DNA of 31,313 bases from Promethearchaeota archaeon. GTDB lineage: Archaea; Asgardarchaeota; Lokiarchaeia; Sigyniarchaeales; SOKP01. Positions 19,089-31,313 of this stretch are shown in pieces (positions within the stretch are counted from its first letter, which is position 1; each line of letters starts with the position of its first letter). The stretch lies in NCBI GenBank assembly GCA_048938005.1, contig JBHLMQ010000032.1, forward strand, positions 3,912 to 35,224, read 5' to 3'. The translations under genes and the position numbers were made by a program. The notes beneath the pieces were generated by a model, which was not told the origin of the DNA, did no database searches, and saw nothing but the letters and a program-made list of their open reading frames with translations.

Positions 19089-20330
19089 TTATTGTTTTAT
19101 TCTTGAGGCTATCAAATCGATTATATCAATCAGTTTTATTTTTTCTTGAACTTCTGAACCAACTTCTTCGTAAGCATCTGAGAAGTTTCCAATGCAAAAT
19201 GGGCAACTAGTTGTTAAAATATCAGCCCCAGATTCTACTGCTTCTCTAATTCTTTCTTTTGAAATCTCTATTGCTAATTCGGGAAATTGGCTTTTTACAC
19301 CACCACCCGCTCCACAACACCATGCATTTTTTTTGTTTCTTTTCATCTCAATAAGTTCAATTCCTGGGATTTTAGAGATTACTTGGCGAGGAATTTCATA
19401 GAGATCCATATGCCGCCCGAGATGGCAAGGATCATGATATGTTACCTTTACTTTCTCACCTTCTTCTTGCTTAAACGGAATTTCGTTATTATTTAACATT
19501 TCTATTAAAATTTCAGTAATATGCTTTACTTCAAAAGGTAATTCTTCACCTAATAATTCAGGATAATCTTTTTTCCAAGTTCGATAACATCCCGCACATG
19601 CCGTAAATAACGTTTTTGCTCCTTTATTCTTAAATTCTACAATGTTATGTTTAATAATCTCAGTTAAAGATTTTTCATCGCCAATACGTAAGGCAATAGA
19701 TCCACAGCACCATTCTTCTTTTGTCATGGCTATTTCTTTATCCGCTACTTTTAAAATCTTCATCATACTTCTTAAAGTATCCACTTGTCTTAGAGGCATT
19801 GTACAACCACCAAAAAACATTAAATCACCTTGATCCTTGATCTCAGGAAATTCCCTCACCCATTCAAATTTTTTAGCTTTTTCTTCCCCGTATGGATTTT
19901 TTATTTTATCTTCATTTATATAATCTATTAAATTTCCATGTCTTTCAAGTGGAGCAATACCAGCTTCAATTAAATCCTTTCTTAATGCTTCCCATACCTT
20001 AACGTGATCGATCCAATTACATGTAGGAAGGATAATATTTTCGTTATGAGTCATATGACATACTTCGGTACAATTACCGCATTCAGAGCATTGATATACC
20101 CATTCAGCTAGTTTTTTACTTAAAGGGATTTTACCTATTAAAATACTTTTCAAAACATTCATACGTCCACGTGGAAAGTAAATTTCAAAACCTTCTCCCC
20201 CTTTAGCTTCTTTAACTGGGCAAGTTAAAAATCTATTTACCGCAGGTCTAATAGCATAACCACAATCACCACATCCCATACAACTCATTATAGCTTCCCA
20301 TTCTTTTTTCAGATGTTTCAATTCAATCAA
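19089..20330 (-). CDS. Fe-S oxidoreductase, GlcF/HdrD-like (4Fe-4S plus two CCG domains), TTG start
   Basis: CMGCGDC...CP, CSECGNCTEVC, WCCG, TACAGC, YHDPCHLGR, WCCGAGGG and TSCPFC. Confidence 0.92.
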   Translation of the reverse strand: MIELKHLKKEWEAIMSCMGCGDCGYAIRPAVNRFLTCPVKEAKGGEGFEIYFPRGRMNVLKSILIGKIPLSKKLAEWVYQCSECGNCTEVCHMTHNENIILPTCNWIDHVKVWEALRKDLIEAGIAPLERHGNLIDYINEDKIKNPYGEEKAKKFEWVREFPEIKDQGDLMFFGGCTMPLRQVDTLRSMMKILKVADKEIAMTKEEWCCGSIALRIGDEKSLTEIIKHNIVEFKNKGAKTLFTACAGCYRTWKKDYPELLGEELPFEVKHITEILIEMLNNNEIPFKQEEGEKVKVTYHDPCHLGRHMDLYEIPRQVISKIPGIELIEMKRNKKNAWCCGAGGGVKSQFPELAIEISKERIREAVESGADILTTSCPFCIGNFSDAYEEVGSEVQEKIKLIDIIDLIASRIKQ

Positions 20331-20335
20331 TTTTT

Positions 20336-21850
20336 TTATTCACCCCAAAAATTGAATTTTCCTCTGCTTAAAATCATATTAGGATCAAGAGTTTCTTTAA
20401 TCTCCTTCATTAAATTATAATAATCTTCTGAATATGCCCCTATTTCAACCATCAAACGCGACATAAATTCCCCCATCATATAATATTGAAGACCATGCTT
20501 GATAAGCCTTTTTAATAATGATTTCCATAACTTTAAATTTGTTTCACGGATAACCTCATGAATTTGCCCATCAAAATATCTCCAGAAGCTAACAAAACCA
20601 GCAGTAACTTCTACATTATTCCCATCAACTAATGGGATGGGACCAGTACCTGAAATTGGACGAATTTTAGTAATATTAAAAATTTTACGCATATCCTCCT
20701 CATGTTCGATATCCCATTGATCAACGTCTCGTATAATTTCAGGAAATTTATTAATTGGACAAAAACATTCCGCTGAGAGTGGTTGCATGGAAGGAAACAT
20801 TCCCCACAGATTATGATAAAATTGCCAATGTCCTTGTTCTGTATAGAACCATCTAGCAATATTCCCATCAGAAATTTCTGAACCAAGATATTCGGATTTT
20901 TTACTCATAATGATATCATCCAACTTTTTAACATTTTCTTTCAATTCCGCTTCTGAATTTGCTTCAATTATATAAAAAAGCATTCCTCTTTTCTTTTTAA
21001 TATGCTCCCATAATGGAAAAAAACCCTGTTCTGATCCAACGGCAACTACCACATCTGGTATAAATATTATATCATAAACATCTATCCCCTTTCTTCTAAT
21101 TTCCATCATAATTTGAGCAGCAGATTCGGCAGGTTTACGAGGCATTAAAAATGTTTTGTAATCTGCAAATTCTGGTTTCGGGAAAATTTTTAGGGAAACT
21201 TTTGTTTTTATTCCAAAAACACCATTATCTCCGCAAAATAGTCCTGTTAAATCCGGACCATTACCAAATCTGTTAAATGGAAGTTTTGAATATTTATTTG
21301 CTTGAGATCCCGTTTCAACGATCTCTCCAGTTGGTAAAACAACTTCTAGCGAAACTAATTGATTAGTACAAGCCCCATATTTAGCGCACCCTCCTCCACC
21401 AACTGAATGATGGGATATACCCCCTCCTATCGATGCTGATAATCCAGATCCTGGACCCATACATCCTGTATAAAGACCATAATGACAAAGATATTCATTT
21501 AATTTTCCCCAAGAAATTCCTGCTTCAACAGTAACGATAAGATTATCTTCATCTAAGTAAAGAATATCGTCCATTCTTTTCAAATCCAATACAATTCCGT
21601 TATCACCAATAGGTTTACTCCCTCCAAACTCACAAATTCCAGCTCCTCGAGGGATAACAGGAATATTTTCTTCGTTTGCTACTTTGAGAATTTCGGAAAT
21701 TTCTTGAGCGTCTTTAGGCCTTATTACTATATCAGGAACACCTTGTAATACAATATCCACATTTCGTGAATAAGCGTGGCGTATATAAATATCATCAGAA
21801 AGATATTTATCAGAAACAATCATCTCTAATTTCTTATATAAATCTGACAT
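20336..21850 (-). CDS. FAD-binding oxidoreductase, GlcD/D-lactate dehydrogenase family
   Basis: PDIVIRP, PRGAG, VEAG, ASIGG, LEVVLPTGEI, GPDL.GLF.G..G.FGI and K..LDP..IL; 5 nt upstream of the Fe-S partner. Confidence 0.92.
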   Translation of the reverse strand: MSDLYKKLEMIVSDKYLSDDIYIRHAYSRNVDIVLQGVPDIVIRPKDAQEISEILKVANEENIPVIPRGAGICEFGGSKPIGDNGIVLDLKRMDDILYLDEDNLIVTVEAGISWGKLNEYLCHYGLYTGCMGPGSGLSASIGGGISHHSVGGGGCAKYGACTNQLVSLEVVLPTGEIVETGSQANKYSKLPFNRFGNGPDLTGLFCGDNGVFGIKTKVSLKIFPKPEFADYKTFLMPRKPAESAAQIMMEIRRKGIDVYDIIFIPDVVVAVGSEQGFFPLWEHIKKKRGMLFYIIEANSEAELKENVKKLDDIIMSKKSEYLGSEISDGNIARWFYTEQGHWQFYHNLWGMFPSMQPLSAECFCPINKFPEIIRDVDQWDIEHEEDMRKIFNITKIRPISGTGPIPLVDGNNVEVTAGFVSFWRYFDGQIHEVIRETNLKLWKSLLKRLIKHGLQYYMMGEFMSRLMVEIGAYSEDYYNLMKEIKETLDPNMILSRGKFNFWGE

Positions 21851-30316: not shown

Positions 30317-30856
30317 ATGATTATTTCTAACAAAACAAATAAGATTCAAGTAATATGCCCTATATGTAAAACAAGAGACATAATTGGCATTCTCGGATCA
30401 AGATTAAATAAAACCTCTCAATTAACAACAATTTCAATTCATAAAGGGCTGATTTGCCCACATCATTTTCAATTCTTCATGGACAACAATTTTCAAATTC
30501 GAGGATATCAGAAGGTTGATTTAGAATTAGATCAAAAAAATTCTGAAACCTTAAGAAATGGTGTAAAAGCATTTAGACTAATTGAAAATAAAAATAAGAA
30601 TCTCTTTAAAAAGTTAACGCTTGAGGGCGATACAGTTAAATATTCACCTTTAAATAGCGATAAAGAGATGGAAAAACGTAATCCAAACCAAAAGGTTAAA
30701 TTAAAAAGTAGAAAAATGTCATTGAAAGAAATTTATGAAGAGTTTTGGGAATTTATTAACATAGATAATGAAAACTTTCTTGAGTTCATTAATCAAGATA
30801 AGAGACGTAAGAAATCTTCAATGCTTTCTCATAAAAGTGAATGTTTAATCACATAA
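30317..30856 (+). CDS. Hypothetical CxxC...CxH metal-binding protein; paralogue of 3..821
   Basis: CPIC...ICPHHFQFFMD.NF.IRGYQKVD N-terminal domain. Confidence 0.8.
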   Translation: MIISNKTNKIQVICPICKTRDIIGILGSRLNKTSQLTTISIHKGLICPHHFQFFMDNNFQIRGYQKVDLELDQKNSETLRNGVKAFRLIENKNKNLFKKLTLEGDTVKYSPLNSDKEMEKRNPNQKVKLKSRKMSLKEIYEEFWEFINIDNENFLEFINQDKRRKKSSMLSHKSECLIT

Positions 30857-31078
30857 AAAAAAATTACGGGTAAATTTAAGACCAATTTTTTAACTTTTAC
30901 CTCTTCTTTAAAATCTATATTAACTTTTAGAAATAAAACATCATTTTTATAAGAAAAAATCATAGTCTGCTTGAAAAAGATATAAGAAAATTTAAAATTC
31001 AGTACTTAATTTTCCAAAATAATAATTTTAATTATAAATAAAACAAAAATTTAAAGAGTAATTAATAGGTTAGGAAAT

Positions 31079-31313
31079 ATGAGCTATAAGTTACCGAATG
31101 AAAAAGATCTTGAAGCTATGATTGGTATTGTCGGTAAACAATACGCAACAAATAACAAAGCGATTACAGCATCTTACTTGGCGAAATCAGTGATGGGTTT
31201 AGAAATCTCTTATCCCAAAGCGGATAATGACTAAATAGCCAAATCCCTGATATCGTCGTTCGACCAAAATATGTTGAGGAAATTCGAAAAATTCTTGTAT
31301 ATTGTACTCAAGA
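31079..31313 (+). CDS. GlcD-family FAD-binding oxidoreductase, 3'-truncated by the window edge and split by a 32-nt putative intron (exon 1 31079..31204, exon 2 31237..>31313)
   Basis: The joined translation MSYKLPNEKDLEAMIGIVGKQYATNNKAITASYLAKSVMGLE|SQIPDIVVRPKYVEEIRKILVYCTQ aligns with the N-terminus of 20336..21850 (IVSDKY...AY...GVPDIVIRPKDAQEISEIL). Confidence 0.8.
31205..31236 (+). other. Putative BHB-type intron in a protein-coding gene
   Basis: Outer helix GGT/GCC, central 4-bp helix TTAG/CTAA, 3-nt bulges AA|A and AT|A, inner stem TC..TTATCC/GGATAA.GA. It contains an in-frame TAA, and excision restores the frame. Confidence 0.8.

What the first reader, a model, noticed from the sequence alone, without database searches (positions are those of the whole stretch)
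31079..31313. Candidate bulge-helix-bulge (tRNA-endonuclease-type) intron in a metabolic protein-coding gene
Seen in sequence: an ORF from ATG 31079 encodes a GlcD-type N-terminus and stops at TAA 31232. The conserved continuation SQIPDIVVRPK..EEI.KIL resumes in another frame at 31237. The intervening 32 nt (ATCTCTTATCCCAAAGCGGATAATGACTAAAT, 31205..31236) and flanks fold into a complete BHB: outer helix GGU(31196-98)/GCC(31238-40), central 4-bp helix UUAG(31199-202)/CUAA(31231-34), 3-nt bulges AAA(31203-05) and AUA(31235-37), and inner stem UC/GA plus UUAUCC/GGAUAA closing a 6-nt loop. Established knowledge: archaeal splicing endonuclease (EndA) cuts after the second nucleotide of each 3-nt bulge and RtcB ligates the exons. 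Applying that rule gives TTA GAA|AGC CAA, exactly in frame. The spacing from the conserved Tyr to PD is then 12 aa, versus 11 aa in the uninterrupted paralogue at 20336..21850. The well-known archaeal mRNA intron of this type is in crenarchaeal cbf5. Inference: this probable Asgard archaeon splices a metabolic mRNA with tRNA-splicing machinery. Such genes would be annotated as pseudogenes or fragments, splicing could gate expression, and it may bear on intron origins in the eukaryote-related lineage. I cannot confirm novelty without a literature search.
Basis: partly seen in the sequence, partly recalled or inferred. Interest (0 to 1): 0.95.

Follow-up and report, generated by a model that had tools for sequence, protein, structure and literature searches.

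The report
Short tRNA-type intron in Lokiarchaeal enzyme gene
A 32-base insert that breaks an enzyme gene of an Asgard (Loki-type) archaeon has the exact shape cut by the tRNA-splicing enzyme, and relatives carry similar mini-introns at ten other places in the same gene, so these archaea very probably splice messenger RNA.

Summary
ATG 31079 opens a frame that stops at TAA 31232-31234, and the conserved protein resumes at 31237 in another frame. The 32 nt at 31205-31236 and their flanks form a canonical bulge-helix-bulge (BHB).

- In 20 aligned loci of the genus, 6 carry the insert. The other 14 lack exactly these 32 nt and read GLESQIPD uninterrupted, which is what the BHB cut rule predicts.
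- Intron-bearing orthologues keep a 451-452 aa open exon 2. Median dN/dS is 0.066.
- Independent DNA assemblies contain the insert.
- The genome encodes two EndA paralogues and RtcB.

Orthologues of this FAD-linked oxidase in other Lokiarchaeia carry 29-34 nt BHB inserts at ten further positions, up to two per allele. A neighbouring Fe-S gene has one in one congener.

No RNA data were available, so splicing is inferred. Within-family covariation is not significant. A genome-wide scan of this genome found no excess of such introns.

In the papers I could search, the known precedents are the crenarchaeal cbf5 intron and a Haloferax 5'UTR BHB. I found no report for Asgard protein-coding genes.

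Verdict: real and very probably spliced. It is a new variant of a known kind, of high interest.

The parts
31079..31204 (+). Exon 1 of an FAD-linked (FAD_binding_4, GlcD-like) oxidase gene: 42 codons, ending ..GLE.
   Evidence: Conserved in all 20 aligned loci. The intronless orthologue P0001 hits Pfam PF01565 (1.2e-23).
31205..31236 (+). 32-nt BHB intron. If unspliced, the frame ends at TAA 31232-31234.
   Evidence: Present in 6 of 20 aligned congeneric loci and absent as one exact 32-nt block in 14. Held in independent DNA contigs.
31237..31313 (+). Start of exon 2 (SQIPDIVVRPK...), cut off by the contig end.
   Evidence: In relatives L002-L006 the same frame runs 451-452 aa to the stop.
31199..31202 (+). 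Central 4-bp helix H, 5' strand (exon 1). Pairs with 31231-31234.
   Evidence: All 10 intron-bearing sequences are paired in all 4 pairs, with one A-U to G-U change.
31231..31234 (+). Central helix H', 3' strand (intron).
31203..31205 (+). 5' three-nt bulge (AAA). Predicted cut after 31204.
   Evidence: The cut rule (between the 2nd and 3rd bulge residues) is stated in PMC2738675 (passages).
31235..31237 (+). 3' three-nt bulge (AUA). Predicted cut after 31236.
   Evidence: The resulting join GAA|AGC equals the orthologues' E-S.
31196..31198 (+). Outer helix h, 5' strand. Pairs with 31238-31240.
31238..31240 (+). Outer helix h, 3' strand (exon 2).
31206..31230 (+). Intron hairpin h': pairs 31206/31230 and 31207/31229, a 6-bp stem 31210-31215 with 31222-31227, and the loop 31216-31221.
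   Evidence: (present in the MFE fold).
31187..31194 (+). Possible exonic extension of the outer helix: 31187-31190 with 31247-31250, and 31192-31194 with 31243-31245.
   Evidence: Present in the MFE fold. Nearly invariant in the 10 intron-bearing sequences, although dS between their genes is 0.2-3.2.
31243..31250 (+). 3' partner of the possible outer-helix extension (exon 2).
20336..21850 (-). Uninterrupted paralogue (504 aa) used as a comparator. It is not part of the intron.
   Evidence: No insert was seen in its orthologues in 29 syntenic loci.
19089..20330 (-). Fe-S (CGDCG-motif) gene next to the paralogue, uninterrupted here. Its orthologue in congener G002 (L125) carries a 30-nt BHB insert with stops at codon 18.
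   Evidence: The canonical cut restores ..SCM|GCGDC.. as in 10 intronless orthologues.

Best explanation
The 32 nt at 31205-31236 are an archaeal bulge-helix-bulge intron inside the coding sequence of an FAD-linked oxidase gene of a Lokiarchaeial (Asgard) archaeon.

Proposed mechanism:
- In the pre-mRNA the last 9 nt of exon 1, the intron and the first 4 nt of exon 2 fold into helix-bulge-helix-bulge-helix.
- The splicing endonuclease cuts after the second nucleotide of each 3-nt bulge. The genome has two EndA paralogues, as expected for a hetero-oligomeric, broad-specificity enzyme.
- RtcB joins the exons to ..GAA|AGC.. and probably circularises the intron.
- The mature mRNA encodes a ~494-aa enzyme. 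Unspliced mRNA would give a 51-aa peptide.

Shown here: the DNA insert, its BHB geometry, the exact match of the cut sites to intronless orthologues, purifying selection on intron-bearing genes, and the presence of the enzyme genes.

Inferred: the cleavage and ligation themselves, and any regulatory role.

The same gene is a hot spot. Across Lokiarchaeia, 29-34 nt BHB inserts occupy at least 11 positions in it, most of them in one to three alleles. This points to repeated recent gain, or lateral spread, and precise loss.
For: Exact match to intronless orthologues. Of 20 aligned congeneric loci, 6 carry the insert and 14 lack exactly 32 nt and read GLESQIPD. The canonical cut gives the same peptide.

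The gene stays functional.
- Exon 2 is open for 451-452 aa in 5 of 5 other intron-bearing loci.
- Across 36 pairs of 9 intron-bearing genes, dN/dS is 0.04-0.11 (median 0.066) while dS is 0.2-3.2. The gene has therefore stayed functional for a long time with the insert.
- There is no ATG, GTG or TTG in the 25 exon-2 codons held here (read). Separate expression of exon 2 is thus unlikely.

The structure is better than chance.
- Strict geometry occurs at 70 of 400,000 random places.
- A BHB score at 13 insert sites, compared with random places in the same loci, gives Fisher p = 2.8e-12.

The insert is real DNA. Logan contigs of X1 and X7 bridge it, X4 and X5 cover it, and no 32-nt skip was reported.

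The machinery is encoded. There are two EndA hits over the Pfam cut-off, in 205- and 219-aa frames, and RtcB at 568 bits. Aragorn finds only 16 tRNAs, 12 of them with introns, which fits an intron-rich lineage (bioRxiv 10.64898/2026.10.13.758758, passages).

The pattern recurs independently.
- BHB inserts lie after codons 14, 47, 233, 371, 374, ~397, 402, 423, 424 and 455 of orthologues.
- One more lies in another gene.
- In every case the canonical cut restores the orthologous reading.
- The first intron nucleotide is A in 14 of the 15 instances I listed.
- L077 has a 31-nt version with a different 5-bp inner stem and a G-U in the central helix.
Against: - No RNA evidence of any kind: no RNA run holds the locus.
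- There is no significant covariation within the site-42 family. 96.8% of cells are paired, but no pair changes on both sides, and 95 of 500 shuffles reach that pairing. The ten sequences are 95% identical.
- With my crude windowed BHB score the window's own site is unremarkable (p = 0.21). Its support comes from the exact-geometry test and from the orthologues.
- Five of the other sites have only 3 of 4 central pairs, so they are relaxed BHBs.
- A genome-wide scan of G000 for strict BHBs that hand one ORF over to another found no excess over frame-shifted controls: 2776 against 2700 and 2740. With paralogue support the counts were 43 against 43 and 47. Such introns are therefore not shown to be common in this genome.
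- The rest of the gene is missing from this assembly.
Confidence: 0.87

Rival explanations
1. The insert is removed from the RNA, but not by EndA/RtcB at the BHB. Some other nuclease or ligase, or an unknown editing activity, does it.
For: Cleavage was not observed. Five of the other sites have imperfect central helices.
Against: All 15 listed instances share BHB geometry. The canonical EndA cut rule restores the frame each time. EndA and RtcB are encoded. The mechanism has a precedent in cbf5 (PMC2738675, passages).
Confidence: 0.05
2. The gene is a pseudogene or is being lost. The 32 nt are a neutral or disabling insertion and no full-length protein is made.
For: Read literally, the frame is broken. 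The remainder of the gene is not in this assembly.
Against: - Thirteen genomes of 109 that hold the locus keep the insert.
- dN/dS is about 0.07 over saturating dS.
- Exon 2 is intact in 5 of 5 loci.
- Exon 1 is conserved at the amino-acid level.
- The insert has BHB geometry at exactly the right register.
Confidence: 0.04
3. The ribosome deals with the insert, either by translational bypassing (as recalled for phage T4 gene 60) or by a programmed frameshift.
For: A stop codon and a hairpin lie just after the break, as in known bypass sites. The comparison with gene 60 is recalled, not read.
Against: - There is no matched take-off and landing codon: GAA at 31202-31204 against AAT at 31234-31236.
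- A frameshift could occur only between the exon-2-frame stop TGA 31228-31230 and TAA 31232-31234. It would add about 9 residues that orthologues lack.
- Neither mechanism explains the in-frame, stop-free inserts after codons 402, 424 and 455, nor the shared BHB geometry.
Confidence: 0.03
4. The insert is an assembly or binning artefact near a contig end.
For: The feature lies 77 nt from the contig end. Unitigs of other runs break at about 31198-31201.
Against: The same insert is in 12 other genome assemblies. Contigs of X1 and X7 bridge it with at least 31 nt on both sides and no gaps.
Confidence: 0.01

Closest known systems
cbf5 pre-mRNA intron of Crenarchaeota (Desulfurococcales, Sulfolobales)
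   Same: It is a BHB or relaxed-BHB intron inside a protein-coding frame. It is cut between the 2nd and 3rd bulge residues by a hetero-oligomeric EndA, and it shows gain and loss among relatives (PMC2738675, passages).
   Different: The cbf5 case is one gene (an RNA pseudouridine synthase) with one position, at the catalytic Asp codon, in thermophilic Crenarchaeota, and it is confirmed by cDNA. Here the host is a metabolic FAD-linked oxidase in Asgard archaea, with at least 11 positions in one gene and up to two per allele. The introns are polymorphic within a genus, and there are no RNA data. G000's own cbf5 homologue lies in one uninterrupted 342-aa frame.
BHB introns of archaeal tRNA genes, including the heavily interrupted tRNA genes of Asgard archaea
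   Same: The motif, the predicted enzymes and the short length are the same. In Asgard genomes, repeated and apparently independent gains are reported, and two EndA paralogues are found in most genomes (bioRxiv 10.64898/2026.10.13.758758, passages; PMC5829648, passages).
   Different: The host RNA here is an mRNA. The constraint is the reading frame rather than the cloverleaf. The exon halves of the motif are coding sequence.
BHB element in the 5'UTR of Haloferax volcanii HVO_1309 mRNA
   Same: An mRNA is processed by the splicing endonuclease (PMC7714728, passages).
   Different: That element lies in the untranslated leader, not in the coding frame. Only a single case is known.
HAC1/XBP1 unconventional mRNA splicing in eukaryotes
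   Same: A short intron is excised from a coding mRNA by an endonuclease acting at stem-loops. RtcB-type ligation follows, changing the reading frame. RtcB's role in XBP1 is mentioned in the abstract listing of PMC8718801; the rest is recalled.
   Different: The nuclease is IRE1, not EndA/TSEN. The reaction is stress-regulated and eukaryotic.

Membership tests
Archaeal BHB (EndA-type) intron | [quoted passage not shown] | tested here: met
   Bulges at 31203-05 and 31235-37. Helix 31199-202 with 31231-34, 4 of 4 Watson-Crick pairs. Conserved in 10 of 10 intron-bearing sequences.
Archaeal BHB (EndA-type) intron | Flanking helices h (exon-exon) and h' (intron). | tested here: met
   h has 3 bp (one G-U), with a possible 7-bp extension. 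h' has 2 + 6 bp.
Archaeal BHB (EndA-type) intron | Cuts after the 2nd nucleotide of each bulge give the functional RNA. | tested here: met
   The predicted join GAA|AGC gives ..LE|SQ.., identical to 14 of 14 intronless congeneric loci. The rule is taken from PMC2738675.
Archaeal BHB (EndA-type) intron | The host encodes a splicing endonuclease and an RtcB ligase. | tested here: met
   Two PF01974 hits (104.7 and 73.8 bits) and one PF01139 hit (568 bits) in G000. Catalytic residues and the L1 loop were not examined.
Archaeal BHB (EndA-type) intron | Spliced RNA and an excised (circular) intron exist. | not testable with these tools
   No RNA run lists the locus.
Archaeal BHB (EndA-type) intron | Compensatory changes keep the helices. 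| tested here: inconclusive
   Four one-sided G-U-compatible changes, no two-sided change, and 95 of 500 shuffles as good. L077 uses a different inner stem register.
cbf5-type pre-mRNA intron | Lies in the cbf5 gene at the catalytic Asp codon. | tested here: not met
   The host gene is an FAD_binding_4 oxidase. G000's cbf5 homologue is uninterrupted. The intron works like the cbf5 intron but is not a member of that family.
Translational bypass / programmed frameshift site | Matched take-off and landing codons, or a slippery site in the overlap of the two frames. | tested here: not met
   GAA against AAT. The overlap of the two open frames is about 1-4 nt and has no slippery heptamer.
Group I / group II intron or another Rfam RNA | Match to a curated covariance model. 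| tested here: not met
   The only hit is a chance-level isrJ match (17.6 bits against a gathering score of 37, E = 0.94). 32 nt is far too short.
Glycolate oxidase subunit GlcD (host gene) | Reaches NCBIfam's equivalog cut-off. | tested here: not met
   TIGR00387 scores 98.3 bits against a cut-off of 567.9. Only the FAD_binding_4 domain is secure (83.8 bits against 26.4). It should be called an FAD-linked oxidase, GlcD-like.

The most novel reading that the evidence does not exclude
Lokiarchaeia, close prokaryotic relatives of eukaryotes, may maintain an active population of about 30-nt BHB mini-introns in protein-coding genes. These would be gained repeatedly, spread by recombination between lineages and lost precisely, with certain genes as hot spots: 11 positions in one 495-codon oxidase gene.

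Inserts that are a multiple of 3 nt and free of stops (after codons 402, 424 and 455) could be translated either spliced or unspliced. That would be a simple form of alternative splicing in an archaeon.

If so, mRNA splicing that must precede translation existed on the archaeal side of eukaryogenesis, independently of group II or spliceosomal introns.
Probability: 0.4. Interest if true: 0.93.

Novelty: new variant of a known kind. Interest (0 to 1): 0.85.

Why it matters
As far as I could read, archaeal introns inside protein-coding frames are known from a single gene. In 2020 the cbf5 mRNA was still cited as the only further BHB intron, beside a Haloferax 5'UTR element found in that study (PMC7714728, passages).

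This locus shows the same chemistry in an Asgard archaeon, in an ordinary metabolic gene. The introns sit at many positions that differ between close relatives. Three consequences follow.

- **Annotation.** Gene callers will report such genes as fragments or pseudogenes, and metabolic reconstructions of Asgard MAGs will miss them.
- **A natural experiment.** Presence/absence pairs at 11 sites offer a way to study how BHB introns are gained and lost.
- **Eukaryogenesis.** The locus makes one question testable: do archaea with coupled transcription and translation tolerate, or exploit, introns in mRNAs? This bears on ideas that link introns to the separation of splicing from translation.

Tried and rejected
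**Genome-wide scan of G000.** I looked for strict BHBs of 12-130 nt whose canonical cut hands one open frame to another. The scan gave 2776 hits, against 2700 and 2740 with the 3' cut shifted by 1 or 2 nt. No stricter helix setting gave an excess. Adjacent genes on one strand swamp the signal, and the window's own site is not scored because exon 2 is cut to 25 codons.

**Paralogue support.** Junction peptides were compared with the rest of the genome. 43 loci had an ungapped paralogue match across the junction, against 43 and 47 in the controls.

**Two leads from that list.** The GTPase on contig C9 has its own start codon, so it is a false hit. Contig C24 has a GTPase-like frame that begins near the WDTGGQE motif without a P-loop, behind an ORF that ends about 60 nt upstream. 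This remains unresolved.

**Covariation in the site-42 family.** No support.

**RNA evidence.** No RNA holder is listed.

**Other copies of the intron in G000.** blastn-short of the last 235 nt gave nothing longer than 22 nt at 91% identity or 15 nt exact. The intron is not a multicopy element in this genome.

**The rest of the gene in G000.** Not in the assembly. Contigs C9 and C31 hold other FAD-oxidase paralogues, not the continuation.

**Rfam.** Nothing.

**cbf5 in G000.** Uninterrupted.

**Flanking genes.**
- No supported insert event was seen in the flanks (at most 1.5 kb a side) of L021-L100.
- In 173 pairs of window ORF and syntenic locus there was one event, in L125.

**One origin for the site-42 intron.** The gene tree needs 5 changes. 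The AU test rejects a single clade (p = 1.8e-6). I did not resolve loss against lateral transfer.

**Literature.** Seven full-text searches found no report of BHB introns in Asgard protein-coding genes. Subscription journals and supplements were not searchable, so this is not proof of novelty.

Full report
**1. The observation**

The window is G000:C55:3912-35224, and the contig ends at the window's last base. ATG 31079 opens a 51-codon frame that stops at TAA 31232-31234. From 31237 another frame reads SQIPDIVVRPKYVEEIRKILVYCTQ to the end.
- Outer helix 31196-98 with 31238-40.
- Central helix 31199-202 with 31231-34.
- Bulges 31203-05 and 31235-37.
- Inner pairs 31206-07 with 31229-30.
- Stem 31210-15 with 31222-27.
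- Loop 31216-21.

The order h-H-bulge-h'...h'-H'-bulge-h is the canonical BHB arrangement. Cutting after the second bulge nucleotide removes 31205-31236 and joins GAA|AGC in frame. That rule is stated for archaeal pre-mRNA in PMC2738675 (passages).

The full structure has -14.8 kcal/mol, against an MFE of -17.0. Strict BHB geometry at a fixed place and spacing occurs at 70 of 400,000 random places in this genome.

**2. Organism and gene**

Relatives' records are titled Promethearchaeota/Promethearchaeia MAGs. More distant orthologues include *Promethearchaeum syntrophicum* and Ca. *Lokiarchaeum ossiferum*. The organism is therefore a Lokiarchaeial Asgard archaeon.

An intronless orthologue (P0001, 495 aa, from L008) carries Pfam FAD_binding_4 at residues 46-188 (1.2e-23). 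It resembles GlcD only far below the equivalog cut-off.

**3. Orthologues**

A DNA search of 41 related genomes found the locus in 21, all in one genus. I aligned 20 loci.
- Six carry the insert: the window, and L002-L006.
- Fourteen lack exactly 32 nt and read ..GGN TTR GAR TCN/AGY CAR ATH CCN GAY.., that is GLESQIPD. This is the peptide the BHB cut predicts.
- In the five other intron-bearing loci exon 2 is open for 451-452 aa, so the spliced total is 493-494 aa. Thirteen of the 14 intronless loci have 493-495 aa. The 14th, L014, is broken elsewhere.

Among 9 full-length intron-bearing genes, all 36 pairs have dN/dS of 0.04-0.11 (median 0.066), with dS of 0.2-3.2.

A family-wide search covered 135 genomes, of which 109 had a match. 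Thirteen show an uninterrupted match across the insert: 12 in the window's genus including G000, and G077 in another genus with a 31-nt version. The rest lack 32 nt or stop matching at the exon-1 end.

**4. Not an artefact**

No RNA run lists the locus. Logan DNA contigs from runs of four studies were laid on 30700-31313.
- X1 record 1 and X7 record 25 bridge the insert with at least 31 letters on each side and no gaps.
- X4 and X5 records cover it with 26-27 letters on the left.
- No 32-nt skip was reported.
- One X5 contig carries a variant intron, including 31214 C>T, which keeps a G-U pair.

**5. Machinery**

G000 has two tRNA_int_endo hits over the cut-off, in 205- and 219-aa frames, and one RtcB. 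Published work reports an (alpha-beta)2 EndA with the broad-specificity L1 loop in Asgard archaea (PMC5829648, passages). Most Asgard genomes have two EndA paralogues and heavily interrupted tRNA genes (bioRxiv 10.64898/2026.10.13.758758, passages). Consistent with that, aragorn finds only 16 tRNAs in this 95%-complete genome, 12 of them with introns.

**6. The same gene holds many such introns elsewhere**

In 80 loci from named genomes, plus the congeners, comparison with P0001 and a BHB search revealed further inserts.

| Insert lies after P0001 codon | Loci | Length | Notes |
|---|---|---|---|
| 14 | L099; L134 = G100 | 31 nt | |
| 42 | the window's site | 32 nt | 31 nt in L077 |
| 47 | L134 | 32 nt | central helix CCCG/CGGG |
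| 233 | L099, L014 | 29 nt | |
| 371 | L092; L090 | 34 nt; 31 nt | the two intron sequences are unrelated |
| 374 | L063 | 30 nt | contains TAA |
| ~397 | L079 | 34 nt | |
| 402 | L067, L072 | 30 nt | no stop |
| 423 | L079 | 32 nt | |
| 424 | L070, L071 | 33 nt | no stop |
| 455 | L072 | 30 nt | no stop |

- In every case the canonical cut restores the orthologous peptide.
- Five sites (233, 371 in L090, ~397, 424, 455) have 3 of 4 central pairs.
- A simple BHB score at 13 sites, compared with 3000 random places per locus, gives Fisher p = 2.8e-12. The sites are not all independent, and the window's own site alone gives p = 0.21 with this crude score.
- The first intron nucleotide is A in 14 of the 15 instances I listed, and the 5' bulge reads AUA in 9 (read).
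- L134's exons translate as expected. Its first intron region folds with z = -4.5.

**7. Another gene**

I compared 17 window ORFs with 29 syntenic loci of congeners, giving 173 ORF-locus pairs. One further event appeared. The orthologue of the Fe-S gene 19089-20330(-) in L125 (G002) has a 30-nt insert with two stops. A BHB there (TTGT/GCAA) restores ..SCM|GCGDC...

No supported event was seen in the flanks of the 80 named loci. The oxidase gene is therefore a hot spot.

**8. History**

On a gene tree of 81 alleles the site-42 intron needs 5 changes. A single clade is rejected (AU p = 1.8e-6). L017 is intronless and sits beside L002. The loop variants of the intron do not follow the gene tree. 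This points to precise loss, transfer by recombination, or both.

The other sites occur in one to three alleles each, which favours recent gains.

Intron and flanking exon bases are 95% identical among ten sequences whose genes are near saturation at synonymous sites. That fits either a structural constraint or recent spread.

**9. Results against the reading, and limits**

- No RNA data are available.
- Covariation is not significant.
- A genome-wide strict-BHB scan of G000 shows no excess over controls.
- The G000 gene is incomplete.
- G000's cbf5 homologue has no intron.
- Rfam finds nothing.

**10. Comparison and novelty**

The mechanism is that of the crenarchaeal cbf5 intron. A 2009 paper says no pre-mRNA splicing other than cbf5 had been confirmed (PMC2738675). 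A 2020 paper still cites the cbf5 mRNA as the only further BHB intron reported, beside the Haloferax 5'UTR element found in that study (PMC7714728).

Seven searches of the held library found no report for Asgard protein-coding genes. The 2026 Asgard tRNA-intron preprint does not mention mRNA in the passages found. Subscription papers and supplements were out of reach.

I rate this a new variant of a known kind. The chemistry is the same, but the lineage and the class of gene are new, and the pattern of many polymorphic mini-introns in one gene is unprecedented as far as I could read.

Noticed in passing
L021-L100, L014, L134 (orthologues of the gene at window 31079-31313): Ten further BHB mini-intron positions (29-34 nt) in the same oxidase gene, with up to two per allele (L072, L079, L099, L134). 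Three are a multiple of 3 nt long and free of stops, so they could be read through.
   Followed up: yes
L125 (G002), orthologue of window 19089-20330 (-): A 30-nt BHB insert with two stops at codon 18 of the Fe-S (CGDCG) subunit gene beside the GlcD-like paralogue. The window's own copy is uninterrupted.
   Followed up: yes
G000 whole genome: Aragorn finds only 16 tRNA genes in a 95%-complete genome, 12 of them with introns. Many tRNA genes are probably hidden by non-canonical introns.
   Followed up: no
window 31185-31256 and the same stretch of L002-L006, L065, L074, L076, L077: Exon bases flanking the intron are nearly invariant, even at synonymous sites, although the genes differ by dS 0.2-3.2. 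Intron loop variants do not follow the gene tree. This suggests an extended helix, co-conversion, or both.
   Followed up: partly
window 31198-31201 (Logan unitigs of X4, X5, X7): Several unitigs end at 31198-31201, just before the intron. This is as expected if strains with and without the intron, or with variant introns, coexist in those samples.
   Followed up: no
G000 contig C24, about 98,880-99,010 (- strand): A GTPase-like frame begins near the WDTGGQE motif without a P-loop, behind a 230-aa ORF that ends about 60 nt upstream. Several weak BHB candidates lie there, none convincing.
   Followed up: partly
L028, L038, L041, L045, L048, L095 and others (titles): Contigs that carry a Lokiarchaeial-type copy of this gene (82-88% identical to P0001) are titled Nanopelagicaceae bacterium, or Hod-, Odin-, Thor- or Hermodarchaeota. 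They are probably mis-binned or mislabelled records.
   Followed up: no
L014 (G021), about 720-800 nt into the gene: Besides the 29-nt insert after codon 233, the locus has a run of N and a further frame change just downstream. I could not interpret it.
   Followed up: no
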